Shown piece by piece: positions 1 to 40,038 of a stretch of 64,000 nucleotides of DNA. The notes under the pieces are model-generated. The model worked only from the letters and a program-made list of their open reading frames with translations. It made no database searches and was not told the DNA's origin. The position numbers and the translations under genes are program-made. Origin of the DNA: Escherichia coli. GTDB lineage: Bacteria; Pseudomonadota; Gammaproteobacteria; Enterobacterales; Enterobacteriaceae. The DNA lies in NCBI RefSeq assembly GCF_003991155.1, contig NZ_CP031293.1, one strand, 5' to 3'. The first letter of the stretch is position 1. Each line of letters starts with the position of its first letter.

Positions 1-567
1 AGCACTTTTTCTGATCCAAAGAACTAGTAAAACTGGTAACAGGCCTATAAAAAAAGAGTTTCTCCATCCATATACTTCAGCAAACTGAGGGATTATTTGT
101 GCCGCAATAATATTTCCAACAGAAAAACCACTTACCAAAAAAGCACTAGCTTTAGATTGAAGATTTTTAGGCCAACTTTCTACTGCATAAGTTGAAGCAC
201 ATGCATATTCACCAGACATCCCTAAGCCAACAATAAAACGGCAAACTGCGAGCATATATAAGTTTGTAGCAATACCGCTAAGGCCTGTTCCGACTGAGTA
301 AATGATAATTGCCCACATCATCATTGGCTTACGCCCATATTTATCAGCCATGGCACCAAAAAAACCGCCCCCAATAGGTCTGGCTATGAAGGCCACTGTC
401 CCTATTAAAGTGGCCTGAATATCCGTAATGCCAAGATCTGCTTTTATAATATGAAGAATGTAAAATATCATCATAAAATCAAAGCCATCAAATACATATC
501 CAAGCCATGCAGAAAAAAGAGCTTTCCGTTGTGGTGGATTAACTTGTTTATACCATACTGTTGCCAT
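1..567 (-). CDS. yjhB: MFS transporter, NanT paralogue (YjhB/NanX-like sialic acid family); N-terminal 189 codons only, gene runs off the window start
   Basis: Reverse-strand ORF starting ATG at 565-567 (MATVWYKQVNPPQRKALFSAWLGYVFDGFDFMMIF...); RBS AGGAAAC upstream; closely resembles the NanT/YjhB N-terminus; NanR operator upstream. Confidence 0.75.
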   Translation of the reverse strand, partial: MATVWYKQVNPPQRKALFSAWLGYVFDGFDFMMIFYILHIIKADLGITDIQATLIGTVAFIARPIGGGFFGAMADKYGRKPMMMWAIIIYSVGTGLSGIATNLYMLAVCRFIVGLGMSGEYACASTYAVESWPKNLQSKASAFLVSGFSVGNIIAAQIIPQFAEVYGWRNSFFIGLLPVLLVLWIRKSA

Positions 568-977
568 ATTTGTTTCCTGTGTTATTCTAATACAGCCCTT
601 AAAGTAAATATTAGGGAGCCTCAACAATATCCAGCAATAATTATATTGTCTTCAAATACGCCAGTACTATTAATTGTTATCAATACCTAATCAGTACAAT
701 CTTTTTCTCCATTTCTTCTTAACATATTTCACGCTATGAAAGATAAAACTGATACCCACCTTCAGTTTTGGGTCACCATCAAAAAAAATGTTCGCCAGAT
801 ATTCCACCACTGGCACAGTTCAACCCTGCTTCAAAAATTGACTTATTCATTGTGCTCATTTTCGTAGTCCGTTCAGGTTGAATAAAACTCCCTTAGTCAA
901 ATGAGGAAAGACTGAGAGGTTATTACTTTAGCTTACGTTATAGCTGTTTTCCTTTGCAGTATTTCTTTGCTTTTCTG

Positions 978-1000
978 TATACCTTTATACCTGTTATACC
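978..1000 (-). promoter_or_regulatory. NanR operator: three GGTATA repeats (GGTATAACAGGTATAAAGGTATA on the minus strand)
   Basis: Plus strand reads TATACCTTTATACCTGTTATACC, the exact reverse complement of the nan operator; lies about 410 bp upstream of the transporter start. Confidence 0.7.
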
Positions 1001-1596
1001 AGATCAAAAAACAAGCAATCCACATAACAAAACGCGTTTTGTTACTGATGTCACAAATTGAGCATATTTTTGTATCTGATAGTTTGTTACAAACACCACA
1101 ACCAAGATGCCTATTTCGTTTCAGCATCAACTGTTAAATTATCTGGTTGCCAACGAGAATACTGAGCTTTTTTGTCCCTAAGACTGACCGTCAACGCAAC
1201 AATCTTTGACTGTTTGACATTGTCATGCCCGCAGGCCAGCGGATCTAAAGACATCAGACTGCTTGCATCAGCCAGTTGCGTATCTGGCTATGTCCCTTAA
1301 TTGGTAAGGGTTCGAGGAACTCAACATTAACGCATTTTTCAGCGCATCACCGACAGTGTATATGAACGATTGCACTCTGACGATGGTTGATTTATTTGGT
1401 TGCATAGGGGCTAGCTAGTCTGGTACCGGAGGCTGGATCTGAAGTACTGACCCTAGGAATAACGCCGGGCTGACTCATATTCTGACCCATTGTCAGCCCG
1501 CGTGTTTACTGCTCTAGCTCATTTCCTGTTGTCAGGCATTCAATTCCCAACTGCAGGTTATGGCCCGGTGAGCGAACACCTGACGGCAGGTATCAC

Positions 1597-1770
1597 TCAC
1601 CCGGAGAAGGTAAATCCCTCAAGGGGCAGCAACTCTGCCAGTCGCTCCTCCGGCCACTCCGGCAGACGTGTCAGGACGTCTGTCAGCCAGGCATGTGGCT
1701 CCAGACCGTTGCGTTTCGCGGTTTCCAGCAAGCTCATTATTTGCGCAGCGCGTTCTCCCGCCATACGACA
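1597..1770 (-). pseudogene. IS66-family transposase (TnpC) C-terminal remnant
   Basis: Minus-strand translation ...AGERAAQIMSLLETAKRNGLEPHAWLTDVLTRLPEWPEERLAELLPLEGFTFSG* matches the TnpC C-terminus (compare the intact copy at 13952..15523); no upstream portion present. Confidence 0.6.
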
Positions 1771-1779
1771 GCCGTCAGA

Positions 1780-3642
1780 GCAGTGCGTCAGCGGGCGGCA
1801 GTTTTACCTGGGGTGCTGGCAGAGGTGGTTATGGCAGCGCCAGCCGCGATAATATCCACAGCAACTATGATTCCGTTAATGAGCAGAGCGGTATTTTCGC
1901 AGGCCGGGGTTATTTTGATATCACTGTGGGGAATCACACTCAGCTCGATGGTGCGGTGATTGCTTCGACAGCACCTGCCGACAGGAACTCGCTGGACACC
2001 GGTACTCTGGGCTGGTCGGATATCCATAACCAGGCAGACTATAAAGCCAGCTATACCGGAATCAGTTTATCGGGTGGCTCAGGGATGTCAGCCAGCCAGA
2101 TGGTGGCCTCAAATGCAATAGCCGGTGCGGCGAACGCACTTACCGGTATGTCCGGCAGCAGTGGACATGCTGAAGGTACCACGTCATCCGCCATCAGCGG
2201 CGGAAATCTCATTATCCGTGATAAGGAGAGTCAGAAGCAGGATATTGCCGGGCTCAGCCGGGACCCGGAAAACGCCAACGGCAGCATTGCACCGATATTT
2301 GACAAGGAGAAAGAACAGAAGCGTCTGCAGGAAGCGCAGGTTATCAGCCAGATTAGCGGTCAGATGAGTAATATCGTAATGACGTATGGCGAAACTGAAG
2401 CGATGAAAGCAGCCTGGAAAGAGCATCCTGGCATGAGCGATGCACAGTTGCGGGAGACTCCGGAATACAGAGAGGTCATGAAAGGCTACGGTACGGGCAG
2501 TTCGCCGCAGATGGTGGTACAGGCCATCACGGGCGTGCTGGGCGGACTGAATGCAGGGAACCCGGGGCAGGTATTGGCGGGCGGTCTGAATCCGGCAGTG
2601 GCACAGCTTATAAAACAGTCCACCGGCGATAACCGGGAAGCAAACCTGATGGCTCACGCAGTCTGGGGTGCACTTGCCGCACAACTGGGCGGAAACAATG
2701 CGGCTTCCGGTGCTGCTGGGGCATTCAGTGGTGAACTTGCAGCCTGGTATATCATTGATAACTACTACGGTGGTCGTACCGATAACCTGAGTGAACAGGA
2801 ACGTCAGCAAATCAGCATGCTGGCCACCATTGCCTCTGGTATTGCGGGGGGACTTGCAGGCAACAGTACGGCGTCTGCCGGTACGGGTGCACAGGCAGGA
2901 ACTCGGCTGAAAACAATATGCTGAACGTGATAGCCACTGAAACAGCAGCTAATACGGCAGCAGCAATAGCTGGTGCTACAGGTAATGCCAGTAAGGATAC
3001 CGGGAATGATAATAGCTGGGATACCGGTGGTGTTACGCTGGCTACGGGAACAGTGTGCTGTACGTGATCCGAGTCGCGATGGCACCCGAGGACCGGGGCA
3101 TGTGCTGAATGGCGACAATACAGACGGAAACAAACAGCCGAATCTGGGCAAAGACGTAGCGAGCGCAACGGATAAGGATAAAGCTGAGCTTGGTGGTGCA
3201 GGTGCTGGAATACCGGGGGGGATGGGGACCGGATAATGAAGAAAAAGCCCGTCATCAGGAGGTTCAGCAACAACGATTTGATGAACTGAGTAAAATATAT
3301 GATAAAAGTCACCCGGCCGGAGAGTTAACGGTGGATGGGCAGACTATCAGGCAGAGTTCGGTAAGTAACCGTTATGGTACGACGAAAGTGTTTGAAAGCC
3401 AGACTTTGACGGATAAACAGATCCACAATTACGCACAGCAACTGGCAGGCGATACACCGCTGAAAGAGGTAAAATCGGGAATCTACACGTCTAAACTATC
3501 AGATGGTTCGGTAATAACACTTAGAAACATATCTACATCAGAAGGTCAGACAGGCGCTCGTTGGACTATAGATATTCGTAATAACCAAAAGCTTACTGAA
3601 CTGGGGAATAAATATTCACGTGTGGAGATTAAGTTCAAATGA
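1780..3642 (+). pseudogene. cdiA: Orphan cdiA-CT module 1: 5-prime-truncated CdiA fragment with C-terminal toxin domain, interrupted by at least two frameshifts
   Basis: ORF 1668..2924 encodes a Gly/Ala-rich CdiA pretoxin region; (A)ENN motif at 2906..2917 is in a different frame; toxin ORF 3190..3642 in a third frame; homopolymer G7 at 3214..3220; left end abuts the IS66 remnant. Confidence 0.7.
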
Positions 3643-3995
3643 TTACTGAGTTAAGTGAAAGAGAATACAAGGAGTTGACAGACGCTGCAGAGGGACAGAC
3701 TCTTGATGCTATTTTGTGTTATTCAGTTCCTGATATTCACCCTGCAGAGTTTAGTTTTGCAGATAGAAGAGAAATCTTTTTTTGGGCATTAACCCGTCTT
3801 CTGAAAGAAGGGCGTATCAAACTCGCCAAGCACGGTAAGTTTTTGGAAGGAAGTGTTGACGAGCAGGTTGAGCGTTTTCGACAGGCATTTCCGAAAACAG
3901 AAGAAGAGATGGAAGACGGTATCTGGTTTTTTGATGAGAGTTGTCCGGGGGGGGCTGTTTGGGTGCTTGAAGATGGCTCTCTCGAATGGACCTGA
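3639..3995 (+). CDS. cdiI: CdiI-type immunity protein for module 1 (118 aa, intact)
   Basis: Start overlaps the toxin stop (ATGA at 3639-3642); small acidic AT-rich ORF immediately 3-prime of a CdiA-CT domain. Confidence 0.65.
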
Positions 3996-5112
3996 TAACC
4001 CCTTCACAGCGCAGGATGCGGCGCAGCGAGCGTATAACAACGATATGGCGGCCTCAGTTTTTGGTACCGGAGGGAACGATACAGGCTACAACGGCAGCGG
4101 TACAGGGACTGGCCGGCGGTAATCTGAGTGCAGCCCTGGCAGGTGGTGCAGCACCGTATCTGGCCGAAGTGGTGAAAACCATGACCACAGACCCGGTTAC
4201 CGGTGAGGTGAATAAGGCTGCAAATGTGGCTGCTCATGCCGTGGTGAATGCCGCACTGGCTGTGGCACAGGGAAATAACGCTCTTGCCGGTGCTGTAGGT
4301 GCAGCCACCGGCGAGGTGGTGGGAATGATAGCCACACAGATGTACGGTAAGCCGGTGAGTGAACTGAGCGAGACAGAGAAGCAGACGGTCTCGACACTGG
4401 CAACGGTTGCTGCTGGCCTGGCCGGTGGTCTGGTGGGCGACTCGGGGCTTCAGCGGTAGCCGGCGCACAGTCAGGTAAGACGACTGTTGAGAATAATTTA
4501 CTTGGCGGTAGTGAAGATGCTCAGGCTGCGTGGATACGCCAGCATGGTATCGACATGGCAACATGTGCAGAAAACCCTTCTGGTGCCGCCTGCCAGAAAG
4601 CAATGAATGAGAGGGATGCTGTAGGGCTGGCTCTGGCAACAGGTACAGTGGCACTACTCCCCGGTAGTGCTCAGGCTGTGTGGGGACTGGGAGCAAGTGC
4701 GAATGCTGGTATCAGTTATCTGGCTGATGGTACTGTAGATCCGACAAACGCAGCCATTGCAGGCTGGGTGAATGTGTTCAGCATGGGTAATGGCCTGGCG
4801 GGGACTGTGGGCTGGAATGCGGCAGGTGGTGCGCTGGGTAACTGGATTGACAACAAAGATCCTCTGTCTGGTGCAATTTCAAATGGTATCGGTTCTGCTG
4901 CCGGGTATGGTATCGGTAAAGGTATTACTTGGGGGACAGATAATATTACGAATGCTGTAGGAAAATGGGTGACAAATGGCTGGGATCCTAAGTACGATCC
5001 AACATGGATAAAATATGCTGAAGTAAATCGTAACGATATCATTCGAGAAGGCATGAAACCGAGCAATGTTCTTGGAACTGCTGGAGATATTGGCGGTTCT
5101 ATAGGATCCTAG
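3986..5112 (+). pseudogene. cdiA: Orphan cdiA-CT module 2: CdiA pretoxin fragment, VENN motif, Gly-rich C-terminal toxin domain; frameshifted; no immunity ORF downstream
   Basis: ORF 3986..4459 (..[10 protein letters not shown]..) then frame change; GKTTVENNLLGG at 4474..4506 (VENN 4486..4497) in frame with ORF 4555..5112; nothing coding in 5113..5230. Confidence 0.7.
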
Positions 5113-6049: not shown

Positions 6050-6079
6050 TCCCCAAGGAGACGGCCCTGGGGAAGGTAA

Positions 6080-7444
6080 TCAGTGTTCTTTTATATATGC
6101 GGCTCTGTGACGTTCAAGTTCAATTGCACCACGATGTGATAACCAGCAGAAAATGATGCAACAAATAATACCGCAGCCAAGAAGATAAAATCCGCCATGC
6201 CAGCCAATATGATCGACCATAATACCAAACAGGCTGGTGCCCAGAGACGCACCGAAGATATAGCTCATAAAACCGCGTAAGCCTACTGCAGAACCAACAG
6301 CAAAGCTGGGAACGATCTCCATAGTCTGAACGGAAGCCAGAAATTGTGGAACGTAAATCAGGCAACCAACAATGGCAGCAAAAATTGTCACCATAAACAG
6401 CGATTCACTTTTCCAGTAGCCAATCAGGCAAATGAAAATCAGCGCCATACAAATCATCGCCAATGGCATACGACGCCCTTTAAACAGTTTGTCTGACAAC
6501 CAACCGGCAAGTAGCGTGGAAGGGATTGCGGCCCATTCAAAAAATAAAAACGCGACGCTCATTTGTTCTTTAGAAAAATGTTTCACCGTCAGCAGATAAA
6601 TAGGCAACCAGCTAATCATCCCGAAGCGTACCATGTATACAAATACGTCAACCAGTGAGACATACCAGGCATTTTTATTGCGTAATACATAAGTGCAGAA
6701 AATCTGAAAGGCACTCATGTTTTCTGGTGCTTTTACCGTCTGTCGGGTATTCAGGACGACTTTTTCTTCCGGCATCATCTCTTCCAGAGAGGGTAGACCT
6801 TCCTGACGTGGGGAACCTTTACCGAGAATCAGCACAATTACCGCAAAAACGATGGCCACGCAGGCCGGAACGATATAGCTCGCACTTTGCCAGTGCTCGC
6901 TGCCGAGTAGGGCAAAAGCGGCACCAACAATGGGTGCAACAATACCACCACCGACGTTATGAGAGATATTCCAGAAAGCACCAACCCGACCACGCTCCCG
7001 GCGAGGGAACCAGTTAGCAATAGTGATGAAAGAAGGACCAACGCCCATTCCCTGGAAAAGACCATTCAGAATAACCAATACCGCAAAAATCCAGAATGCG
7101 GTGCTGAATCCCAGGCCAACGTTAACGATGGCACATAACACCAGCCCACACGCCATAAAGACTTTCGGACTGGCTTTATCGGCAAGGCTACTCATCACTC
7201 CTTTGCTGATACCATAGGCGATAAGCATACAGCTACTCAGTACGCCAATTTGTGTGGCGCTGAGATCTAATTGCTCTTTAAGATAAGGCGTCGATAAGGT
7301 GAAATTATTACGCACGATATAGTATGCAAGATACCCCAGAAATACACTAAGTAACGCCTGCATACGATAGCGACGATATGTCACCTGAATTTTCTCCGCC
7401 GGAACACTATCCGCCGCTTGCCCCGTTTTAAATATTGATAACAT
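6080..7444 (-). CDS. pgtP: Phosphoglycerate transporter PgtP (organophosphate:phosphate antiporter, UhpT/GlpT family)
   Basis: 454-aa ORF with 12-TM MFS features and close match to remembered Salmonella PgtP; divergent from pgtCBA. Confidence 0.85.
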   Translation of the reverse strand: MLSIFKTGQAADSVPAEKIQVTYRRYRMQALLSVFLGYLAYYIVRNNFTLSTPYLKEQLDLSATQIGVLSSCMLIAYGISKGVMSSLADKASPKVFMACGLVLCAIVNVGLGFSTAFWIFAVLVILNGLFQGMGVGPSFITIANWFPRRERGRVGAFWNISHNVGGGIVAPIVGAAFALLGSEHWQSASYIVPACVAIVFAVIVLILGKGSPRQEGLPSLEEMMPEEKVVLNTRQTVKAPENMSAFQIFCTYVLRNKNAWYVSLVDVFVYMVRFGMISWLPIYLLTVKHFSKEQMSVAFLFFEWAAIPSTLLAGWLSDKLFKGRRMPLAMICMALIFICLIGYWKSESLFMVTIFAAIVGCLIYVPQFLASVQTMEIVPSFAVGSAVGLRGFMSYIFGASLGTSLFGIMVDHIGWHGGFYLLGCGIICCIIFCWLSHRGAIELERHRAAYIKEH

Positions 7445-7535
7445 GTCTTCACCTGTATTTTATATTGATATGAACACTTGGAGTATTCTGACAATGAGAG
7501 TTATATAATTGAGATGAAACATCAAACTGAAAAAA

Positions 7536-7553
7536 TGTGTCACAATTGACACA
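7536..7553. promoter_or_regulatory. Perfect inverted repeat TGTGTCA-caat-TGACACA in the pgtP/pgtC divergent intergenic region (candidate operator)
   Basis: Read directly from sequence; 7-bp arms, 4-bp spacer. Confidence 0.3.
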
Positions 7554-7842
7554 AATTAATAAAATCAAAGCCTGTTTTTGACCCATTTTATTGATGCATA
7601 GACAGGGTAGATTTATGCTTTATCTGTTTTATTGTTAGCATGTGCGGATATTAACAAATCTCATGCTGATTATCGGGTAATCACTGATTAATATATTAAC
7701 GCTCTCTTTGAGCAGATGTGTTATCAGACGAAGTGTCTGAAACGGGTAATTTTTGTCTCAATGCGATTTTTGCGGTGTATTAATATTTATGACCTGGATC
7801 ACAAACCGATTTTTTAGCTGGTGCGAAATCGGCATCAAAACC

Positions 7843-9060
7843 ATGATTCTTTTACTGTTGTTGATGGATACCGGGGCCGTCAGGGCTCAACGAAATGAAC
7901 TGGTGATGGCCACCACATTCTCACCCGGAGCTACCGCGTGGATAATACAGCGCTGGCAAACAGAGCCTGAGTCGGTAATGATCCGTACGCTTAACCGCAC
8001 CAGTGCCTCACTGGAACAGTTGCTTGATACGGCCAACGTAGAAAACGTCGATCTGATCCTGACTTCATCACCAATGCTGCTCCAGCACCTTCAGGAGCAC
8101 CAGAAACTTGCCCCGTTTGATGATGCACCCGCAGAAAGCCAAAATCTGGTGCCGGAGTCGATCCGTGCAACCTCCGTTGCAGTAGCAATATCAGGTTTTG
8201 GTCTGCTCATTAATCGTCCGGCGCTTTCTGTAAAACACCTTCCTGCCCCTGCTGACTGGGACGATCTTGCTTTGCCGATCTATCAGGACGCTTTATTGAT
8301 GAGTAGTCCGTCGCGTTCAGATACTAACCATTTAATGGTTGAGTCATTACTACAGCAAAAAGGCTGGGTGAAAGGATGGGAAACGTTGCTGACAAGTGCA
8401 GGAAACCTGGTGACAATCTCCTCCCGCAGTTTTGGCGTAGCCGATAAAATAAAAAGCGGACTCGGCGTTGCCGGCCCCGTTATCGATAACTATGCTAATT
8501 TACTGTTAAATGACCCCCATCTCTCTTTTACCTATTTCCCCCGGTCTGCGGTATCTCCCACCTACGTTGCAATTCTCAAGAAAAGCCCACACGCCGATGC
8601 AGCCCGTCGCTTTATTCACTACCTGTTAAGTCCGAAAGGACAGCGTATTCTGGCCGATGCCAATACAGGAAAATATCCGGTGACACCACTTGCCGCAGAC
8701 AACCCGCGGGCAACGCAACAACAGCTCCTGATGAATCAACCCCCGCTGAATTATCACCTTATCCTGAAACGTCAGCGTCTGGTGCAGCGCTTGTTTGATA
8801 CGGCAATTAGCTTTCGGTTAGCACAGCTAAAAGATGCCTGGCGAGCGCTGCACAGTACCGAGGCACGCCTGAAGAAACCATTACCAGAAATACGTGCACT
8901 GTTAACACAAGTGCCCGTTGCAGCGGCCAGCAGTGAAGATCCCTTCTGGCTGGCACAGTTCGATAACAAAAGCTTTGCCGAGCAGCAAATGATGGAATGG
9001 CAACTCTGGTTTCTGAATAACCAGCGCCTGGCGATAAAAAAACTGGAAGAGCTGAAATGA
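7843..9060 (+). CDS. pgtC: PgtC, phosphoglycerate transport regulatory protein (periplasmic-binding-protein-like)
   Basis: ORF 7753..9060; likely start at internal Met 7843 before a signal-peptide-like segment (MILLLLLMDTGAVRA); stop overlaps pgtB start; start uncertain. Confidence 0.7.
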   Translation: MILLLLLMDTGAVRAQRNELVMATTFSPGATAWIIQRWQTEPESVMIRTLNRTSASLEQLLDTANVENVDLILTSSPMLLQHLQEHQKLAPFDDAPAESQNLVPESIRATSVAVAISGFGLLINRPALSVKHLPAPADWDDLALPIYQDALLMSSPSRSDTNHLMVESLLQQKGWVKGWETLLTSAGNLVTISSRSFGVADKIKSGLGVAGPVIDNYANLLLNDPHLSFTYFPRSAVSPTYVAILKKSPHADAARRFIHYLLSPKGQRILADANTGKYPVTPLAADNPRATQQQLLMNQPPLNYHLILKRQRLVQRLFDTAISFRLAQLKDAWRALHSTEARLKKPLPEIRALLTQVPVAAASSEDPFWLAQFDNKSFAEQQMMEWQLWFLNNQRLAIKKLEELK

Positions 9061-11066
9061 AAAACATAACGCTGTGGCAGCGTTTAAGACAGGTCAGTAT
9101 CAGTACCAGCTTACGTTGCGCATTTCTGATGGGGGCACTACTGACCCTGATTGTCAGTAGTGTCAGTCTGTATTCATGGCATGAACAAAGCTCACAAATT
9201 CGTTACTCGCTGGATGAGTATTTTCCCCGTATTCACTCTGCTTTCCTTATTGAAGGGAACCTGAATCTGGTGGTAGACCAGCTAAATGAATTTTTGCAGG
9301 CTCCCAACACCACGGTGCGATTGCAACTTCGTACCCAGATTATTCAGCATCTCGACACCATAGAACGGCTTAGTCGGGGGCTGTCATCCCGGGAACGCCA
9401 ACAACTGACGGTCATTTTGCAGGACAGTCGATCACTGTTATCCGAGTTGGATCGTGCGCTTTACAACATGTTTTTACTACGGGAAAAGGTGAGTGAGCTA
9501 TCAGCGAGGATTGACTGGTTACACGATGATTTTACTACCGAGCTTAATTCTTTAGTGCAGGATTTCACCTGGCAGCAGGGAACGCTGCTGGATCAAATCG
9601 CCTCCCGACAGGGCGATACGGCGCAATACCTGAAGCGATCTCGTGAAGTGCAAAATGAACAGCAGCAGGTTTATACCCTGGCACGCATTGAAAATCAGAT
9701 TGTTGACGATCTGCGTGACAGACTCAATGAACTCAAATCAGGACGTGATGACGACACACAGGTGGAAACTCATCTCCGTTATTTTGAAAATCTGAAAAAA
9801 ACGGCAGATGAAAATATACGTATGCTGGATGACTGGCCTGGCACCATTACCCTGAGGCAGACTATCGATGAATTGCTGGATATGGGAATCGTAAAAAACA
9901 AAATGCCGGATACGATGCGTGAATATGTCGCCGCCCAAAAAGCCTTAGAGGATGCCAGTCGCACCAGGGAAGCGACACTGGGTCTCTTCAGAACGTTACT
10001 GGAAGCGCAGCTTGGCAGTACTCATCAACAAATGCAGATGTTTAATCAACGAATGGAACAAATTGTTCGCGTTAGCGGTGGGCTGATCCTAGTGGCGACA
10101 GCACTGGCGTTACTGCTGGCATGGGTATTCAACCATTATTTTATCCGCTCACGGTTGGTGAAACGCTTTACCCTACTGAATCAGGCCGTTGTGCAAATTG
10201 GTCTGGGAGGCACGGAAACGACTATTCCTGTTTATGGGAATGATGAACTGGGGAGAATTGCAGGATTATTACGCCATACTCTCGGGCAGCTCAATGTGCA
10301 AAAACAGCAACTTGAACAAGAAATTACCGATCGAAAGGTGATAGAAGCCGATCTGCGTGCCGCCCAGGACGAACTGATTCAGACAGCGAAGTTGGCGGTA
10401 GTCGGGCAAACGATGACCACGCTGGCCCACGAGATCAATCAGCCGCTAAATGCGCTGTCGATGTATCTGTTTACAGCCCGCAGGGCCATTGAACAGACCC
10501 AGATAGAACAGGCCTGCATGATGCTTGGTAAAGCCGAAGGGGTGATTAGTCGCATTGACGCCATTATCCGTTCACTACGGCAGTTTACCCGGCGCGCCGA
10601 ACTGGAAATATCACTCCATGCCATTGATTTAGCAAAGATGTTCAGTGCGGCCTGGGAACTTCTGGCCATGCGTCATCGCCCTTTGCAAGCTACGCTTGTT
10701 CTGCCACAAGGTACAGCCACAGTTTCAGGCGATGAGGTCAGAACCCAGCAGGTACTGGTTAACGTACTGGCGAATGCGCTTGATGTTTGTGGGCAAGGCG
10801 CTGTCATTACCGTTAACTGGCAAATGCAGGGTAAAACGCTGAACGTATTCATTGGCGATAATGGCCCGGGCTGGCCTGAGGCATTGTTGCCTTCGTTATT
10901 GAAGCCGTTTACCACCAGTAAAGAAATAGGACTGGGTATTGGTCTTTCAATTTGTGTGTCGTTAATGGAGCAAATGAAAGGGGAATTACGGCTGGCATCA
11001 ACGATGACCAGGAATGCCTGTGTGGTACTGCAATTCAGACTAACGGATGTGGAAGATGCTAAGTAG
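9057..11066 (+). CDS. pgtB: PgtB sensor histidine kinase
   Basis: 669-aa ORF with N-terminal TM/sensor region, H-box (LAHEINQPLNAL) and ATPase G-boxes (GDNGPGW, GLGIGLS); 4-bp overlap with pgtC. Confidence 0.85.
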   Translation: MKNITLWQRLRQVSISTSLRCAFLMGALLTLIVSSVSLYSWHEQSSQIRYSLDEYFPRIHSAFLIEGNLNLVVDQLNEFLQAPNTTVRLQLRTQIIQHLDTIERLSRGLSSRERQQLTVILQDSRSLLSELDRALYNMFLLREKVSELSARIDWLHDDFTTELNSLVQDFTWQQGTLLDQIASRQGDTAQYLKRSREVQNEQQQVYTLARIENQIVDDLRDRLNELKSGRDDDTQVETHLRYFENLKKTADENIRMLDDWPGTITLRQTIDELLDMGIVKNKMPDTMREYVAAQKALEDASRTREATLGLFRTLLEAQLGSTHQQMQMFNQRMEQIVRVSGGLILVATALALLLAWVFNHYFIRSRLVKRFTLLNQAVVQIGLGGTETTIPVYGNDELGRIAGLLRHTLGQLNVQKQQLEQEITDRKVIEADLRAAQDELIQTAKLAVVGQTMTTLAHEINQPLNALSMYLFTARRAIEQTQIEQACMMLGKAEGVISRIDAIIRSLRQFTRRAELEISLHAIDLAKMFSAAWELLAMRHRPLQATLVLPQGTATVSGDEVRTQQVLVNVLANALDVCGQGAVITVNWQMQGKTLNVFIGDNGPGWPEALLPSLLKPFTTSKEIGLGIGLSICVSLMEQMKGELRLASTMTRNACVVLQFRLTDVEDAK

Positions 11067-12303
11067 TGAATATTCGATTCTGCTGATTGATGATGATGCA
11101 GATGTGCTGGACGCCTACACACAGTTACTTGAACAGTCAGGCTATCGGGTTTTTGCCTGTAACAATCCTTTTGAGGCGCAGGCGTGGATACAACCAGACT
11201 GGCCAGGCATTGTGCTAAGTGATGTGTGTATGCCTGGCTGCTCTGGTATCGATTTGATGATGTTATTCCACCAGGATGATCAACAGATCCCCATTCTGCT
11301 TATCACCGGGCACGGCGACGTGCCAATGGCAGTTGATGCGGTAAAAAAAGGCGCGTGGGATTTTTTGCAAAAACCGGTTGATCCCGGCAAATTGCTTTCT
11401 CTGGTTGAAGAGGCGCTACGCCAGCGTCAATCAATCATTGCGCGTCGTCAGTATTGCCAACAGACATTGCAGGTGGAGTTGATAGGGAGAAGTGAATGGA
11501 TAAATCAGTATCGGCGACGTTTACAGCAGTTGTCTGAGACAGATATTGCCGTCTGGCTCTACGGTGCCCCTGGCACAGGACGGATGACCGGTGCACGTTA
11601 TCTGCACCAATTTGGACGTAATGCACAAGGCGAATTTGTCTACCGCGAGCTGACACCAGACAATGCACCACAGCTTAATGATTTCATTGCGCTGGCTCAG
11701 GGGGGAACATTAGTGCTCAGCCATCCTGAACACCTGACGCGTGAACAGCAGTACCATCTGGTTCAGTTACAAAGCCAGGAACACAGACCTTTTCGCCTGA
11801 TTGGTATTGGAGACACCTCGCTGGTCGAGCTGGCCGCCAGCAACCATATCATCGCGGAGCTCTATTACTGCTTTGCAATGACACAAATCGCTTGCCTGCC
11901 ATTAACTCAACGCCCCGACGATATTGAACCACTGTTTCGCCACTACCTTTGTAAGGCATGTCAACGGCTTAACCATCCTGTTCCGGAAGTGGGAAAAGAG
12001 ATGCTCAAAGAGATGATGCGCCGCATGTGGCCAAATAATGTGCGAGAGCTGGCCAATGCAGCAGAACTGTTTACTGTAGGAATATTACCGCTGGCAGAAA
12101 CAGCAAACCCGTTGATGCACGTCGGAACCCCGGCACCGCTTGACAGGCGAGTGGAGGACGCTGAGCGACAGATAATCACAGAGGCGCTTAATATCCATCA
12201 GGGGCGTATCAATGAGGTTGCTGAATATTTACAAATCCCACGGAAAAAACTCTATCTCAGAATGAAAAAATACGGTCTTAGTAAGGAGCATTATAAAATT
12301 TAA
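11047..12303 (+). CDS. pgtA: PgtA, NtrC-family (sigma-54-dependent type) response regulator
   Basis: Receiver domain (LLIDDD...D), AAA+ central domain (GAPGTGR), C-terminal HTH; overlaps pgtB by 20 nt. Confidence 0.85.
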   Translation: MWKMLSSEYSILLIDDDADVLDAYTQLLEQSGYRVFACNNPFEAQAWIQPDWPGIVLSDVCMPGCSGIDLMMLFHQDDQQIPILLITGHGDVPMAVDAVKKGAWDFLQKPVDPGKLLSLVEEALRQRQSIIARRQYCQQTLQVELIGRSEWINQYRRRLQQLSETDIAVWLYGAPGTGRMTGARYLHQFGRNAQGEFVYRELTPDNAPQLNDFIALAQGGTLVLSHPEHLTREQQYHLVQLQSQEHRPFRLIGIGDTSLVELAASNHIIAELYYCFAMTQIACLPLTQRPDDIEPLFRHYLCKACQRLNHPVPEVGKEMLKEMMRRMWPNNVRELANAAELFTVGILPLAETANPLMHVGTPAPLDRRVEDAERQIITEALNIHQGRINEVAEYLQIPRKKLYLRMKKYGLSKEHYKI

Positions 12304-28898: not shown

Positions 28899-28950
28899 GA
28901 TAATTGCGTATATTCTGTAATTAAGATAATTGCATATCTTCTGCAATTAA
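28899..28950 (+). repeat. Two tandem imperfect 26-bp direct repeats (GATAATTGCGTATATTCTGTAATTAA / GATAATTGCATATCTTCTGCAATTAA)
   Basis: Read directly from sequence immediately 3-prime of the outer-membrane protein gene; 3 mismatches between copies. Confidence 0.6.
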
Positions 28951-28959
28951 ACAGAAATA

Positions 28960-28995
28960 CCCTGCAGTCTATTACTGCAGGGTTGTCTTTTATCT
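28960..28995 (+). terminator. Intrinsic terminator (CCCTGCAG / CTGCAGGG stem, T-rich tail)
   Basis: Inverted repeat followed by TTGTCTTTTATCTGTTTT. Confidence 0.6.
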
Positions 28996-29062
28996 GTTTT
29001 ACAGATAATTTCTGATTTTTATTATCCTGTTCTCTTCATAATAATGTTGTCGATATACTCCG

Positions 29063-30565
29063 ATGAATATCAGAAAACTGTTTTGTCCGGGCAACACCCC
29101 CCGGATTTTATTGTTTTTATTCTTTTTTGTTGTTTCTGCAATAACCACAATTGCATGCGGATACACTGAGAAGAATGCAACAGGAAATGTGCTGCTTCTG
29201 TTTCTCCTTCTGCTCCTTGCATACAGAAATACCCTCACATCCATTACAGCGCTGTTATTTCTGTTCTGTTGTGCACTGTATGCGCCTGCCGGTATGACGT
29301 ACGGTAAAATCAACAACAGTTTTATTGTCGCGTTGTTGCAGACCACAACTGATGAGGCAGCGGAGTTTACCGGGATGATTCCTGTTTATCATTTTCTGGT
29401 CAGTGCCGCGATTCTGGTATTCATGGTGATTTTCTGGCGAACACACCACCGCGGTCACCGTAACTGGCTGGCACTGCTGCTGTTCGTATTATGCTCAGTA
29501 AACAGCTGGCCGTTGCGGATGGTTAAAGGAACTGTTGTGGGGACAACTGACACATTGCGTGAAATGCAACATTATAAACAACTGAGTCAGCACGGGGCTG
29601 ACAACTGGAAAATCCTGCCGGGAACACCGTTATATGACACAATTGTTATTGTCACTGGTGAGAGTGTGCGCAGGGATTATATGTCGGTATATGGCTATCC
29701 CGTGCCAACCACGCCGTGGCTGAATACAGCTCCCGGTTTATTTATTGACGGCTATACATCGGCAGCAGCCAGTACCGTACCTTCCCTGAGCCGGACACTG
29801 ATTTATGACTATGAGCAGAACCCTGACTCCGGCAACAACATGGTGGCGCTGGCAGCAAAAGCAGGATACAGCACATGGTGGATATCCAATCAGGGAAAGC
29901 TGGGGGAGCATGATACACGCATCTCTGTTATTGCTTCTGATGCGGAGCATACCGTTTTCCTCAAGAAAGGCAGCTTTGCTTCCCGTAAAACGGATGACAT
30001 GTTGTTGTTACAGGAAACAGAACGTGCACTGGCGGATAAATCCTCTCCGAAGGTGATATTCCTGCACATGATGGGGTCTCATCCGAACCCGTGTGACCGG
30101 CTTCACTCCTGGCCGAATCATTACCTGGAGCAGTATCCCCGAAAGGTTGCCTGTTACCTCGCCAGCATCAGTAAACTGGATAACTTTCTCGGTCAGCTTG
30201 ATGGTATCCTTCGCCGGCATTCCCGTCATTTCGTCATGCTTTACTTTTCTGACCATGGGCTGTCGGTCAGCGACAGTGCTAATCCTGTTCATCATGATGG
30301 TCATGTGCAGGGAGGCTACAGCGTTCCCCTGATTATTACCGCCAGTGACATCACGTCTCATCAGTCCGTCAGCAGAAAAATCAGTGCCCGTCATTTCGCA
30401 GGTATTTTTCAGTGGCTGACCGGCATTCGTACTGAAAATATACCGCCATTCAATCTACTGACAGACGAAGATAATGAACCCATTATGGTTTTTAACGGAG
30501 AGAGGAATGTACCGGCAGACAGTCTGAAACCGCAGCCTCTGATTCTTCCGGTCAAGGGAAAATAA
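29063..30565 (+). CDS. Sulfatase-family phosphoethanolamine transferase (EptA/YhbX/OpgE-like), 500 aa
   Basis: N-terminal multi-TM region followed by a periplasmic alkaline-phosphatase-superfamily domain (..IVIVTGESVRRDYMSVYGY.., ..HMMGSHPNP.., ..YFSDHG..). Confidence 0.7.
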   Translation: MNIRKLFCPGNTPRILLFLFFFVVSAITTIACGYTEKNATGNVLLLFLLLLLAYRNTLTSITALLFLFCCALYAPAGMTYGKINNSFIVALLQTTTDEAAEFTGMIPVYHFLVSAAILVFMVIFWRTHHRGHRNWLALLLFVLCSVNSWPLRMVKGTVVGTTDTLREMQHYKQLSQHGADNWKILPGTPLYDTIVIVTGESVRRDYMSVYGYPVPTTPWLNTAPGLFIDGYTSAAASTVPSLSRTLIYDYEQNPDSGNNMVALAAKAGYSTWWISNQGKLGEHDTRISVIASDAEHTVFLKKGSFASRKTDDMLLLQETERALADKSSPKVIFLHMMGSHPNPCDRLHSWPNHYLEQYPRKVACYLASISKLDNFLGQLDGILRRHSRHFVMLYFSDHGLSVSDSANPVHHDGHVQGGYSVPLIITASDITSHQSVSRKISARHFAGIFQWLTGIRTENIPPFNLLTDEDNEPIMVFNGERNVPADSLKPQPLILPVKGK

Positions 30566-30924
30566 GCGTAATGTTCATCACCAGATTATGTACGATGAGT
30601 TTTCCACTGTTTATAGCAATTATCTTGCTAATAACCAGACAGGAGTAACCAGACCAACCGAAAACACCGGGGAGGTGATTACCCGCTGGCAGAGGAAATC
30701 CGGTTTTTTTTGATGTCAGCCATAACGTGTTTGACAATAAAACATTATGAAAGGGTGTTAATGAGTCCATGGGATAATTCATAAAAATAATTTATTGTGT
30801 TATCCTTTTCAAAAGAAATATTCAGAAGATAACCCCTGGCTGACAACCAGGGGAAGGGGACATTAACAGTGTTATTATTGGTGGATAAATTATTACTTGT
30901 GTGCAGGATACACTAATGCAATAT

Positions 30925-31998
30925 CTACTGATACTGTATGCCAGTATGTTTCATGCCTGCCGCTGAAAACGGCAATATCCAGGGCCAGACATATTCACCA
31001 TTCATATTTCTGCATTTCTGTACAATTTTCTCAGAAAGCGTCTCATCAATTCTTTCACGCAACTTCTCCTGCTGTCTTAAAATACTTTCGCATATTTCGA
31101 AATCATCTTCCTGCATCAGCATTTCGGCGCATTTAATGATTTCTGCCCGTTCATGCAGCACAGAGGAATGATTATAGAGCCAGTTTACAAACAGCAATGC
31201 TTCCGGATATTGCCCCCATAACGGGTGGTATGTGGCATAATAATCTTCGGCAGTATCCGGACCGCCTGAAAAGTTATGCCATACAGCAAGTGGAAATGGA
31301 TGCAGATTTCCGCACAGTATTTCTGCGATGTAAGTATTTGCCGCAAAGCCGCGACGAAATGCAGTTGCAGCTTTTACCAGTTCCCCATTAAGAAAATGCA
31401 GAAGGCCGAGTTCATACCAGTAAGGTGAAAATTCATCTGCATGTTCCTGCAGTATATGGCGTGCCTGTTCATGAGCGCCAGTGCGTAACAGTTCCGGTCC
31501 CAGTAGCCAGCGTGCACCATGATTATCTTCGGGATTGTAATCCAGTATTTTTTCAATGAGCATGATGGCATCCTGATGACGCCGTAAATGTGCATTTGCC
31601 AGGATTGCCGCATAGAGGGCACGAAGAAAAGGTCGGTTGTCAGGATGTATCCAGATGATTCTGCCACTGAAACCTTCAGGGATAAGACGATTGCCAACTG
31701 CCAGTCCTTTAAGGGCAGCATTCAGCGCCTTACGCGGGGCATTCTGCTCCAGAAATACGTATGCCAAGTGAGCGTGTACATCAATAAAGTCATTCTCCTG
31801 TCGGGCAAGGCGCCTGAGTTTGTTGATGTAACTTGTTTCGCTGATTTCATCCGCATCGTATGCATCAATCAGTTCTTCAAACTCATCCAGCAACGAGCCA
31901 AACCAGGTTTCCGGAAATATGAAACAGCCCTGGTTATCGTTCACTTCAAAGCGTAATTTGCCAGTCATATTCTGAACCTGTAAAAAAGGATGGACCAT
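30925..31998 (-). CDS. Hypothetical protein (357 aa), predicted all-helical/TPR-like; start may be Met 31968
   Basis: Long intact ORF adjacent to the integrase; no family recognised. Confidence 0.5.
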   Translation of the reverse strand: MVHPFLQVQNMTGKLRFEVNDNQGCFIFPETWFGSLLDEFEELIDAYDADEISETSYINKLRRLARQENDFIDVHAHLAYVFLEQNAPRKALNAALKGLAVGNRLIPEGFSGRIIWIHPDNRPFLRALYAAILANAHLRRHQDAIMLIEKILDYNPEDNHGARWLLGPELLRTGAHEQARHILQEHADEFSPYWYELGLLHFLNGELVKAATAFRRGFAANTYIAEILCGNLHPFPLAVWHNFSGGPDTAEDYYATYHPLWGQYPEALLFVNWLYNHSSVLHERAEIIKCAEMLMQEDDFEICESILRQQEKLRERIDETLSEKIVQKCRNMNGEYVWPWILPFSAAGMKHTGIQYQ

Positions 31999-32223
31999 AA
32001 TCTGCAGGCTATAAAAATTGTGATGCCTGGCATCGGTGTCCTTTTATTGTCCGGGATTAACGTTGCCCATGATAATACAGTGAATCCTGTTCTGTGGTAA
32101 GACGTTGAGTTATTGAATGAGAACCTCAGCCTGGCTGATGGTTCCGCCGGCATAAAAAAGAAATTGATTGAGGCGGGTGCTCTTCCCCTTAAGAGGAAGA
32201 GCATGTGTGTAAATGGTGTTCAG

Positions 32224-33489
32224 TCACCTTTTCAGTGGATTGTTAACTTTTGCATATTCAAACGGACTGATACCCTTATCTCTGTTTGCATCCAGAAAAT
32301 CTGCCCACCATTGCAGCATAAGCCGACGTTCTTCCAGATGTTCTGCTTTATGAATATACGCGGCACGTACTCCGTTGCGCTCCTGATGACTCATCTGACG
32401 TTCAACCGCATCTCTTGACCATAAACCGGATTCAATCAATGCACTGCACGCCATCGCCCGGAATCCATGGCCACAGACTTCCTTGGTTGTGTCATACCCC
32501 ATCACTCTGAGGGCCTTATTTACGGTATTTTCACTGATTGGTTTACGCGGGTCATGTGCTCCCGTAAAGATCAGACCATTTTCACCAGCCCATGTCTGAA
32601 GTTCTGTCAGTATGGCTACAGCCTGTTTGCTGAGTGGCACAAGATGTGGTGTTCGCATCTTGGAGCCCCGGTGTGAGAATTTTACCCCTGGCAGAGGTTT
32701 GCGTTCGGCTGGAATAGTCCACATGGCATTGTCAATATCAATTTCAGACCAGCGGGCGTATCTGAGTTCACTGGAACGAATAAAAACCAGTAAATTCAGC
32801 ATAACGGCAAGCCGGGTGACAGGCTGACCTTTATAACTGTTAATACGCGACAGAAGTTCAGGCAGACGTGAAAGATCAAGAGCGGGGCGATGCTGGCGTT
32901 TTACCGTAGTCAATGCGCCAGCCATATCCAGAGCAGGATTATATCTGATGATGCCAGACTGTACGGCATAACGCATTACGGCAGATATTCTTTGCTGCAG
33001 ACGACTGGCGATTTCATAAATTTGTTTAGCTTCTGCAGCACGAACAGGGATAAGCAGATCCGGGGTATTGAGTGTTGTGATATCCCGGTTGCCGATAAAG
33101 GGGAAAACGTGTGTTTCGAGGCTTTTGAGTACTTTATCGCTGTGTGATTGTGCCCATTGTTTATTACTGGCATGCCAGCGTCGTGCAATATGTTCAAAAG
33201 AGAGCTGTAAATCAGGGACTACTTTTTTAGCTCTTTTCTGTTCGCAAGGGTCAATCCCCTCCGAAATCAGTTTTCGGGCCTCATCCCGTTTTGTACGAGC
33301 TTCGGAGAGAGAAACTTCTGGATACACACCAAGTGCCAGAGTCTTCTCCTTACCCAGAATACGATAACGGAGACGCCAGTAACGGGAACCATTAGGATGT
33401 ACCAGCAGGAACATGCCAGCCCCGTCAGTGAGTTTATAAGCCTTGTCAGTGGGCTTTGCAGCCCGGATTTTTGCGTCAGTCAGTGCCAT
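32224..33489 (-). CDS. P4-type (CP4-57-like) tyrosine integrase
   Basis: 421-aa ORF MALTDAKIRAAKPTDKAYKLTDGAGMFLLVHPNGSRYWRLRYR... with C-terminal catalytic region; immediately downstream of tRNA-Phe in the same orientation. Confidence 0.92.
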   Translation of the reverse strand: MALTDAKIRAAKPTDKAYKLTDGAGMFLLVHPNGSRYWRLRYRILGKEKTLALGVYPEVSLSEARTKRDEARKLISEGIDPCEQKRAKKVVPDLQLSFEHIARRWHASNKQWAQSHSDKVLKSLETHVFPFIGNRDITTLNTPDLLIPVRAAEAKQIYEIASRLQQRISAVMRYAVQSGIIRYNPALDMAGALTTVKRQHRPALDLSRLPELLSRINSYKGQPVTRLAVMLNLLVFIRSSELRYARWSEIDIDNAMWTIPAERKPLPGVKFSHRGSKMRTPHLVPLSKQAVAILTELQTWAGENGLIFTGAHDPRKPISENTVNKALRVMGYDTTKEVCGHGFRAMACSALIESGLWSRDAVERQMSHQERNGVRAAYIHKAEHLEERRLMLQWWADFLDANRDKGISPFEYAKVNNPLKR

Positions 33490-33652
33490 AGTTCAGCCTT
33501 CTGAATGCGTTAAAGAGGGTACAAATTCTGTCGAACTGGGGTATACCCGCAATTATACCCACACAATGGGGTTGATGTGGGGGGAATCTGGTTGAGTTCG
33601 GTAGAATTGATTTGTAGGCAGAACGCTTAAATCGTGGTGTTCTGAAACGAAA

Positions 33653-33680
33653 AACGGACCTCCGTGGAGGTCCGTTTATA
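33653..33680 (-). terminator. Intrinsic terminator just 3-prime of tRNA-Phe
   Basis: Minus-strand CGGACCTCC-acg-GAGGTCCG hairpin followed by TTTTT. Confidence 0.6.
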
Positions 33681-33686
33681 TGAATT

Positions 33687-33762
33687 TGGTGCCCGGACTC
33701 GGAATCGAACCAAGGACACGGGGATTTTCAATCCCCTGCTCTACCGACTGAGCTATCCGGGC
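33687..33762 (-). tRNA. pheV: tRNA-Phe (GAA anticodon), 76 nt including CCA
   Basis: Reverse complement reads GCCCGGATAGCTCAGTCGGTAGAGCAGGGGATTGAAAATCCCCGTGTCCTTGGTTCGATTCCGAGTCCGGGCACCA; locus assigned as pheV from flanking yqgA/speC. Confidence 0.95.
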
Positions 33763-33867
33763 AACGGGGCGCATTAAACCTGATTCGCCTCGTCTCGTCA
33801 ATCAAATTTCTTCAATTTACTGCAGACTGCACAATCTATCATCACTTTGCCGCTATTGCACGCATTG

Positions 33868-34575
33868 TCAGGCAAACCAGGCGGTCCAGGCGGCGGAAAG
33901 CGGCATTGCCAGAAGGAGTGCTGGAAGCATGTTGACCACCGGGAACATTTTAATGCCACAGATGCGTAATCCGGTTGCCAGCAGCAATAAACCGCCTACG
34001 GCGCTGAAGTCTGCCATCATCGACGGTGTGGTCAGCGGTAATATCAGCGCGGCAGCCCACGCCAGTGTTAACTGGATGATCAGTAATGGAATGCTAATCA
34101 CCGACACCGCAATACCCAGCGAGCAGGCGAAGATCATCGCCGTAAAGAAATCAAGAAATGACTTGGCGATTAAAATACTCGGATCGCCGGTCATCCCTTC
34201 GTTCATCGCCCCGAAGATTCCGGTGCCGCTGGCGCAAAACAGGACAATAATCGCGACAAAATTCTGAATAAAAGATTCATGCGCTGGCTTCTTACGCGAG
34301 TGGTGAAACAGATTATGCGCTTTGGCGACCACTGTATTGACGCCTTTTTCCAGCAGACAAATTTCGCCGATTAATGCTCCGAGTAAGGTTGCTAAAACCA
34401 TCGCCGGAAGGTTGGCGCATTTCACCACCAGTAAAATACCAATCCCCAGCGATGCCAGACCAAAAATTGATGTCATGGAGACGCGGATACGTTCCGGTAA
34501 GCGTTGGCTAAGGAGTGCGCCGAAAACGCCACCCAGTAAGACTGCACTTGCGTTGATAAAAGGGCCGATGACCAC
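33868..34575 (-). CDS. yqgA: YqgA, DUF554 inner-membrane protein
   Basis: 235-aa hydrophobic ORF; synteny with the K-12 pheV region. Confidence 0.85.
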
Positions 34576-37109: not shown

Positions 37110-37111
37110 GA

Positions 37112-37148
37112 ATAAAAAAACGGGTCACCTTCTGGCGACCCGTTTTTC
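37112..37148. terminator. Bidirectional intrinsic terminator between speC and nupG
   Basis: A7 run, CGGGTCACC..GGCGACCCG hairpin, T5 run. Confidence 0.7.
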
Positions 37149-37157
37149 TTTGCGTAA

Positions 37158-38615: not shown

Positions 38616-39722
<1,107 letters not shown>

Positions 39723-39759
39723 TTATGCAAGTTGCCGGAGGCGTGCTCCGGCACTGTTT

Positions 39760-40038
<279 letters not shown>

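What the first reader, a model, noticed from the sequence alone, without database searches (positions are those of the whole stretch)
978..1000. Exact NanR operator (three GGTATA repeats) on an island-borne sialic-acid-type transporter
The sequence GGTATAACAGGTATAAAGGTATA (minus strand) is identical to the characterised nan operator, which places the NanT paralogue at 1..567 under sialic acid/NanR control. The operator lies about 410 bp from the start codon, implying a long leader or an unannotated upstream element; a 27-codon ORF (MSTMNKSIFEAGLNCASGGISGEHFF) sits in that leader.
Basis: partly seen in the sequence, partly recalled or inferred. Interest (0 to 1): 0.4.

Follow-up and report, generated by a model that had tools for sequence, protein, structure and literature searches.

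The report
Known NanR operator of nanXY operon
This is the well-known binding site of the sialic-acid repressor NanR in front of the E. coli nanX-nanY (yjhBC) genes, so the finding is correct but already known; the long stretch between site and gene is a drifting copy of the leader of the sister operon nanCMS.

Summary
GGTATAACAGGTATAAAGGTATA lies at 978-1000 on the minus strand, with none expected by chance. It is identical to the K-12 nanA operator and to the K-12 nanX (yjhB) operator.

The gene at 1-567 is nanX, the 2,7-anhydro-Neu5Ac transporter, 35% identical to NanT. NanR control of yjhBC/nanXY has been published since 2013 and is used in a PnanX biosensor. The core claim is therefore right but already known.

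The 410-bp gap is real and also present in K-12. A conserved CRP-like site and an extended -10 (TGgTATAAC) inside repeat 1 put the inferred start near 986. That gives a leader of about 419 nt. No mapped start site could be retrieved.

New here: the nanX leader is paralogous to the roughly 420-nt nanC leader. Close relatives carry one contiguous nanC-nanM-nanX-nanY cluster behind a single operator. The leader diverges about as fast as third codon positions, has no Rfam match and no unusual fold. One relative has lost 160 nt of it.

The 26-aa ORF is specific to this allele: it is 43 aa in the majority K-12-type allele. It is probably not a gene.

Verdict: ordinary, low interest.

The parts
978..1000 (-). 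NanR operator: three GGTATA hexamers with spacers ACA and AA
   Evidence: Exact unique match. Identical to the K-12 nanA and nanX operators. The (GGTATA)3 operator binds three NanR dimers (PMC8012715).
993..1001 (-). Inferred extended -10 element TGgTATAAC, overlapping repeat 1
   Evidence: Top-scoring sigma-70-like site upstream of nanX, nanC and nanA alike. Inference only; no start-site data.
984..988 (-). Inferred transcription start, about position 986, between repeats 2 and 3
   Evidence: About 7 nt downstream of the -10 and 61.5 nt from the centre of the CRP-like site. Inference, not mapped.
1002..1005 (-). GATC (Dam) site directly upstream of repeat 1
   Evidence: Sequence. Conserved at nanA, nanC and nanX. 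Methylation changes at the GATC sites next to NanR sites of nanA, nanC and yjhB are reported in PMC5155068.
1040..1055 (-). CRP-like site TGTGAcatcagTAACA, centre 1047.5
   Evidence: Sequence. A TGTGA half-site sits 55 nt before repeat 1 in nanX, nanC K-12, L007, L008 and L014, and 54 nt in nanA. CRP binding was not tested here.
568..985 (-). Long AT-rich 5' leader of nanX (about 419 nt, 34% GC), paralogous to the nanC leader
   Evidence: Global alignment score -14 against -65.6 +/- 8.9 for shuffles; local 26 against 12 +/- 1.6. Alignments A1 and A2. Fold z-score +1.33. No Rfam match.
779..859 (-).
   Evidence: Listed. It is 43 aa in K-12 because of a 1-nt indel and TGA>TGT. Its distal part is deleted in L007. 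The Shine-Dalgarno match is weak (GGA only).
781..814 (-). Weak hairpin GCCAG/CTGGC (814-810 / 798-794) followed by a run of 8 T (788-781)
   Evidence: Sequence. Not called by the terminator scan. The T-run is the site of the length polymorphism against K-12.
624..652 (-). Promoter-like AAGACA-17-TATTGT (with TATAAT at 645-640): candidate proximal promoter
   Evidence: My scan. The same hexamers are listed for yjhB under an RpoD-holoenzyme SELEX peak in PMC3946193. Function unproven.
1..567 (-). 5' part of nanX (yjhB), MFS transporter of 2,7-anhydro-Neu5Ac
   Evidence: RefSeq annotation of the 100% identical strain PSUO2 and of K-12. Function from PMC7535918.
1100..1108 (.). Point where IS4 (insG) is inserted in K-12; uninterrupted in this window
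   Evidence: K-12 homology runs from window 1 to 1108 on one side of IS4 and resumes at 1100-1706 on the other side at 96% identity.

Best explanation
Window 978-1000 is the NanR operator of the nanX-nanY (yjhBC) operon. It lies inside a CRP-assisted sigma-70 promoter built like the nanA and nanC promoters.

The elements in order are a CRP-like site (1055-1040), a GATC site (1005-1002) and an extended -10 TGgTATAAC that is itself part of repeat 1. The inferred start is about position 986, within the operator.

Without sialic acid, three NanR dimers occupy the repeats and exclude or block RNA polymerase. Neu5Ac releases NanR, and nanXY is then transcribed with a leader of about 419 nt.

The long leader is inherited baggage rather than a dedicated device. 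It is a diverged copy of the nanC leader. It probably arose when nanXY was separated from an ancestral nanC-nanM-nanX-nanY cluster and kept, or received, a copy of that cluster's promoter-leader module. The 26-codon ORF is a chance or decayed reading frame.

Shown here: sequence identity, paralogy, gene orders in relatives and the ORF polymorphism. From the literature: NanR binding and Neu5Ac induction. Inferred: start site, CRP role and direction of the rearrangement.
For: Operator identity:
- The 23-mer is unique in the window and identical to the K-12 nanA and nanX operators.
- The gene is nanX, followed by nanY, in the 100% identical genome.

Literature on regulation:
- yjhBC/nanXY is one of three NanR-controlled operons carrying a (GGTATA)3 operator (PMC8012715; PMC3658417; PMC7535918).
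- A single-copy PnanX-mVenus fusion gave low background and the best Neu5Ac induction. It spans the equivalent of window 1104 to the ATG, that is the CRP site, the operator and the whole leader.

Promoter architecture:
- The highest-scoring sigma-70-like site upstream of nanX, nanC and nanA is the same TGgTATAAC in repeat 1.
- The TGTGA half-site spacing is conserved at 54-55 nt.

Leader origin:
- The leaders are paralogous (alignments).
- L008/L009 and L010/L011 have a contiguous nanC-nanM-nanX-nanY cluster. In each the only operator-type repeat lies upstream of nanC. In L010/L011 its second repeat is GGTCTA.

Leader under weak constraint:
- Leader identity is 60-73% against 53-68% at third codon positions.
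- L007 has a 160-nt deletion.
- Fold z-score is +1.33, the consensus fold is weak and Rfam finds nothing.
Against: - No mapped start site for nanX could be retrieved. Kalivoda 2003 and 2013 and Condemine 2005 are not held, and three start-site supplements had no entry.
- An RpoD-holoenzyme SELEX study lists a predicted proximal promoter AAGACA-17-TATTGT for yjhB.
- NanR genomic SELEX retained only nanC/fimB when Neu5Ac was present.
- NanR binding and nanR presence were not checked for this particular strain.
- The direction of the split-versus-fusion event is not resolved by three lineages.
Confidence: 0.9

Rival explanations
1. The leader is a functional post-initiation regulatory module. Translation of the upstream ORF, which is 12 codons in nanC leaders and extended to 26 codons here, would control premature termination (hairpin plus T8, or Rho) or downstream translation. 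That would add a second control layer to NanR.
For: - A 12-codon ORF with a good Shine-Dalgarno sequence (AAGGA or AAGGAG) sits at the same place in nanC leaders of K-12, L014 and L008, with the same length despite about 50% nucleotide divergence.
- The nanX ORF starts at the homologous ATG.
- In this window the ORF runs through a small hairpin and ends right after a T8 run.
- Both paralogous leaders have kept a length of about 420 nt.
Against: - The nanX ORF changes length, 26 against 43 aa, between the two E. coli alleles through an indel in the T-run.
- It has only a GGA Shine-Dalgarno core.
- It is truncated in L007, which lacks 160 nt of leader.
- The hairpin has 5 bp, an 11-nt loop and a 5-nt spacer, and is not called as a terminator.
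- No covariation-supported structure was found, and the fold is no better than shuffles.
- The leader diverges at about the third-position rate.
- Polymorphism within the nanC ORF shows no depletion: 2 variable columns in 39 nt against about 3 expected.
Confidence: 0.07
2. nanX is mainly transcribed from a proximal promoter in the leader (AAGACA-17-TATTGT, or TATAAT at 645-640). The distal operator would be a relic that no longer controls nanX.
For: Promoter-like hexamers lie at 652-624. The same pair is listed for yjhB under an RNA polymerase holoenzyme SELEX peak. The operator is 410 bp from the ATG.
Against: - yjhBC is de-repressed in nanR mutants and induced by Neu5Ac according to the literature.
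- The full fragment has low uninduced output and strong Neu5Ac induction.
- The operator is perfectly conserved while the leader drifts.
- The SELEX-chip peak cannot separate sites a few hundred bp apart, and the hexamers there are a sequence prediction.
Confidence: 0.03

Closest known systems
nanXY (yjhBC) promoter/operator of E. coli K-12 (the orthologue)
   Same: The 23-bp operator, GATC site, CRP-like site and RBS are identical. The leader is 97.8% identical and the operator-to-ATG distance is the same (411 against 410 nt).
   Different: K-12 has IS4 inserted about 100 bp upstream of the operator, at window-equivalent 1100-1108; this window is uninterrupted. One extra base in the T-run and TGA>TGT make the small ORF 43 aa in K-12 and 26 aa here. 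The flanking island content differs.
nanATEK-yhcH (nanA) operator/promoter of E. coli
   Same: The 23-mer GGTATAACAGGTATAAAGGTATA is identical and is preceded by TTGATCT. A CRP-like half-site lies 54 nt (here 55 nt) upstream of repeat 1. The extended -10 sits within repeat 1.
   Different: The nanA ATG follows the operator by 35 nt, giving an inferred leader of about 43 nt. Here the gap is 410 nt and the inferred leader about 419 nt. There is no similarity downstream of the operator.
nanCMS (nanC) promoter-leader of E. coli
   Same: The promoter has the same layout and is about 84% identical over about 80 bp. The operator-to-ATG gap is about 418 nt. The leader is significantly similar beyond the operator, and an upstream ATG lies at the homologous place.
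   Different: The third repeat is degenerate in nanC (GGTGCA). The nanC upstream ORF is 12 codons with a better Shine-Dalgarno sequence. nanC shares its upstream region with fimB regulation. nanC is in 5080 of 5426 complete genomes, the nanX leader in 1150.

Membership tests
NanR (GGTATA)3 operator of the E. coli sialoregulon | Three direct GGTATA hexamers with 3-nt and 2-nt spacers | tested here: met
   Exact GGTATA-ACA-GGTATA-AA-GGTATA at 978-1000 on the minus strand. Identical to the nanA operator.
NanR (GGTATA)3 operator of the E. coli sialoregulon | Lies in the promoter region, overlapping -10/+1, of a sialic-acid utilisation operon and oriented toward it | tested here: inconclusive
   The orientation and the downstream genes nanX-nanY are met. 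The overlap with an extended -10 and the start site is inferred from conserved architecture. No mapped start site was available.
NanR (GGTATA)3 operator of the E. coli sialoregulon | Bound by NanR; the operon is de-repressed by Neu5Ac or in a nanR mutant | not testable with these tools
   Reported for the identical K-12 site and operon and for a PnanX reporter. Not tested for this strain.
NanR (GGTATA)3 operator of the E. coli sialoregulon | GATC (Dam) site within about 5 bp of the operator | tested here: met
   GATC at 1005-1002, one base from repeat 1. The same holds at nanA and nanC. Literature.
NanR (GGTATA)3 operator of the E. coli sialoregulon | A nanR gene is present in the same genome | not tested
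   nanR is outside the window. nanRATEK-yhcH is reported in more than 99% of E. coli isolates (PMC10088187).
Leader-peptide transcription attenuator | Conserved, translatable leader ORF coupled to a terminator/antiterminator structure | tested here: not met
   ORF length and C-terminus differ between alleles, and the ORF is truncated in L007. The Shine-Dalgarno match is weak. No terminator was called on the minus strand in the leader. No conserved structure was found.
Known cis-regulatory RNA (riboswitch, thermometer or similar in Rfam 15) | Match to a curated covariance model | tested here: not met
   No match with E up to 1 in window 1-2000 on either strand. The leader folds no better than shuffles (z +1.33).

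The most novel reading that the evidence does not exclude
The roughly 420-nt leaders of nanC and nanX could be two copies of one still-functional regulatory module. A short upstream ORF (12 codons in nanC, extended here) would tune Rho-dependent or intrinsic premature termination, or translation, of the accessory sialic-acid operons. That would be a second control layer beneath NanR that has not been described.
Probability: 0.07. Interest if true: 0.4.

Novelty: already known. Interest (0 to 1): 0.12.

Why it matters
The site itself adds nothing new. NanR control of yjhBC/nanXY is textbook E. coli regulation and is already exploited as a sialic-acid biosensor promoter.

The modest added value is evolutionary. 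The nanXY promoter-leader is a paralogue of the nanCMS one, and relatives keep all four genes (nanC-nanM-nanX-nanY) behind one operator. That explains why a simple repressor-controlled transporter operon carries an odd 0.4-kb leader. It also suggests how the three-operon sialoregulon was assembled by duplicating one promoter module.

For annotation, the small ORF should not be called a gene.

Tried and rejected
- Papers with the mapped start sites are not held: Kalivoda 2003 and 2013, Condemine 2005, Sohanpal 2004.
- Supplements of three genome-wide start-site studies had no yjhB, nanC or coordinate hits. A text search for yjhB with UTR and start-site terms was unproductive.
- The related-loci scan of genome contigs with NanX returned only one Vibrio locus, which has no (GGTATA)3 array upstream of its nanX homologue.
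- Rfam found nothing.
- Whole-leader folding showed no excess stability.
- RNAalifold on five nanX/nanC leaders gave a weak consensus of -11.4 kcal/mol with an unfavourable covariation term.
- tblastn of NanC and NanM against the leader gave no coding remnant; the best E-value was 0.05 on the wrong strand. The idea that the leader is a decayed nanC/nanM gene was rejected.
- The nanM-nanX spacer of L008 and L010 resembles the nanX leader only in the last 40 nt or so around the RBS.
- The polymorphism test on the nanC upstream ORF lacked power.
- More distant NanX and NanC homologues have no (GGTATA)3 array upstream, so they could not inform leader conservation.

Full report
**1. Observation**

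The 23-mer GGTATAACAGGTATAAAGGTATA occurs once in the window, at 978-1000 on the minus strand. No other site is within 3 mismatches, and none appeared in 100 dinucleotide shuffles.

The minus-strand ORF that runs off the window start begins at 567 with MATVWYKQVNPPQRKALF. The operator ends 410 nt upstream of that ATG. All stated facts are correct.

**2. Identity of the locus**

Window 1-1500 is 100% identical to E. coli strain PSUO2, an avian isolate. There the gene is annotated nanX (MFS transporter) and is followed by nanY (2,7-anhydro-N-acetylneuraminate hydratase).

In K-12 MG1655 the same genes are nanX/nanY, formerly yjhB/yjhC. NanX is 35% identical to NanT and lacks its central insert.

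The surroundings match a genomic island:
- an IS66 remnant;
- orphan CdiA-CT/immunity modules;
- pgtPCBA;
- a type I secretion system with a giant Ig-like protein;
- many IS fragments and an integrase;
- low GC content of 34-38%.

**3. It is the known NanR operator**

The K-12 nanA operator (L003 5613-5635) and the K-12 nanX operator (L005 5625-5647) are the identical 23-mer. The nanC operator differs only in the third repeat, GGTGCA.

Published work supports the function:
- The (GGTATA)3 operator occurs in three operons: nanATEK-yhcH, nanCMS and yjhBC. Three NanR dimers bind it cooperatively and Neu5Ac weakens binding (PMC8012715).
- yjhBC is co-regulated by NanR (PMC3658417).
- nanXY encodes the uptake and conversion of 2,7-anhydro-Neu5Ac and is 'the final NanR-regulated operon' (PMC7535918).
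- The GATC next to the operator, here at 1005-1002, is one of three NanR-adjacent Dam sites with changing methylation at nanA, nanC and yjhB (PMC5155068).
- A recent preprint cloned PnanX with primers that correspond to window 1104-1090 and to the ATG. The fragment therefore holds the CRP-like site, the operator and the whole leader. It had low background and the highest Neu5Ac induction among the native NanR promoters tested.

The core interpretation is therefore right and already known.

**4. Promoter and leader**

I could not retrieve a mapped nanX start site. The position is inferred from two lines of evidence.
- Upstream of nanX, nanC and nanA the best sigma-70-like element is the same extended -10, TGgTATAAC, formed by the T before repeat 1 and repeat 1 itself.
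- A TGTGA half-site of a CRP-like site lies 55 nt (nanX, nanC and relatives) or 54 nt (nanA) before repeat 1.

Both place the start at about window 986, inside the operator. That is 61.5 nt from the CRP-site centre. This is consistent with the statement that the operator lies within the promoter region and blocks RNA polymerase. It implies a leader of about 419 nt, the same as in K-12.

A proximal promoter-like pair, AAGACA-17-TATTGT at 652-624, exists. It is listed as a prediction under an RNA polymerase SELEX peak. The low uninduced output of the complete PnanX fragment argues against a strong NanR-independent promoter.

**5. Why the leader is long**

nanC has a comparable gap of about 418 nt between operator and ATG. 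The two leaders are similar well beyond the operator (alignments):

| Alignment of the sequence between operator and ATG | Observed score | Shuffles |
|---|---|---|
| Global | -14 | -65.6 +/- 8.9 |
| Local | 26 | 12 +/- 1.6 (maximum 19 of 300) |

Context of NanX homologues:

| Locus | NanX identity | Arrangement |
|---|---|---|
| L008/L009 | 88% | nanC-nanM-nanX-nanY contiguous; one operator, upstream of nanC |
| L010/L011 (Salmonella-type) | 76% | nanC-nanM-nanX-nanY contiguous; one operator, upstream of nanC, with its second repeat GGTCTA |
| L007 | 91% | nanXY has its own operator, with a leader of only about 250 nt |

No complete E. coli genome has the contiguous arrangement. More distant homologues have no (GGTATA)3 array.

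The simplest reading is that the nanXY promoter-leader is a copy of the nanC one. It would have been acquired when nanXY became a separate unit. The direction of this event is an inference.

**6. Is the leader functional?**

Several results point to weak constraint:
- Rfam finds nothing.
- The leader RNA folds no better than shuffles (z +1.33).
- The consensus fold of five leaders is weak and gains nothing from covariation.
- There is no coding remnant of NanC or NanM.
- Leader identity is close to third-codon-position identity in both comparisons, and there are many indels:

| Comparison | Leader identity (gaps excluded) | Third codon position identity |
|---|---|---|
| nanC, K-12 vs L008 | 60-70% | 64% (nanC), 53% (nanM) |
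| nanX, K-12 vs L007 | 73% | 68% |

- The promoter/operator block is better conserved, and the operator itself is nearly invariant.

The leader therefore appears to evolve close to neutrally.

**7. The small ORF**

The nanX leader occurs in 1150 of 5426 complete E. coli genomes. It comes in two alleles:
- the window type, at 99% identity or more in 68 genomes;
- the K-12 type, at 97.8% identity in about 1080 genomes.

Nothing is annotated under it in the records listed.

The alleles differ by one base in the T-run and by TGA>TGT. The ORF is 26 aa here and 43 aa in K-12. In L007 the deletion removes its distal part. Its Shine-Dalgarno match is only GGA.

Its first 12 codons align with a 12-codon ORF in nanC leaders: MRSTD[I/T]LFYDSG* in E. 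coli and MKFLCKAFFSSG* in L008. Those have good Shine-Dalgarno sequences. However, polymorphism within the nanC ORF shows no depletion.

I regard the nanX ORF as non-coding. A real upstream ORF in nanC remains an untested possibility.

**8. Verdict**

What is added here:
- the inferred promoter anatomy;
- the paralogy of the nanX and nanC leaders;
- the contiguous nanCMXY arrangement in relatives;
- the finding that the small ORF is allele-specific.

Interest is low.

Noticed in passing
window 568-985 (-) compared with K-12 nanC leader (L004 3503-3920, -): The roughly 420-nt leaders of nanX and nanC are paralogous beyond the shared promoter/operator. I found no mention of this in the papers I could read.
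   Followed up: yes
L008 and L009 (Logan SRR30544095, SRR7444192); L010 and L011 (GCA_040796605.1, ERR9516243): Relatives carry nanC-nanM-nanX-nanY as one contiguous cluster with a single (GGTATA)3-type operator upstream of nanC. No complete E. coli genome has this order.
   Followed up: partly
K-12 nanC leader L004 3733-3771 (-); L008 311-349; L014 600-638: A 12-codon upstream ORF with a good Shine-Dalgarno sequence is kept at the same place and length in nanC leaders (MRSTDILFYDSG*, MKFLCKAFFSSG*). It is intact in 8 E. coli-type alleles. There is no statistical signal of selection.
   Followed up: partly
window 1100-1108: This is the site where K-12 carries IS4 (insG). A 9-bp overlap of the two K-12 homology blocks looks like the target duplication. 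The window shows the uninterrupted state, so in K-12 IS4 sits only about 50 bp upstream of the CRP-like site of the nanX promoter.
   Followed up: partly
window 781-814 (-): A small hairpin GCCAG/CTGGC is followed by T8. The T-run differs between the window allele and the K-12 allele (TTTTTTTT against TTGTTTTTT).
   Followed up: partly
window 624-652 (-): Promoter-like AAGACA-17-TATTGT and a perfect TATAAT (645-640) lie about 60-80 nt upstream of the nanX ATG. The first pair is the one predicted for yjhB in an RNA polymerase SELEX study.
   Followed up: partly
window 1181-1773 and 1926-5111: An IS66-family transposase remnant is followed by orphan CdiA-CT (VENN pre-toxin) fragments with small putative immunity genes and a DUF596 pseudogene. 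This looks like an array of contact-dependent-inhibition toxin/immunity cassettes next to nanX.
   Followed up: no
window 6079-12302; 19408-23178; 28208-40989; 49718 onward: The island also carries pgtP/pgtCBA (phosphoglycerate transport), a disrupted autotransporter, a TolC/ABC/HlyD type I secretion system with a 2642-aa Ig-like repeat protein, two PapB/FocB-family regulators, many IS fragments and a tyrosine integrase.
   Followed up: no
L019 (strain SCEC020001): nanC is annotated as a pseudogene (internal stop) in this strain although its promoter and leader are intact.
   Followed up: no
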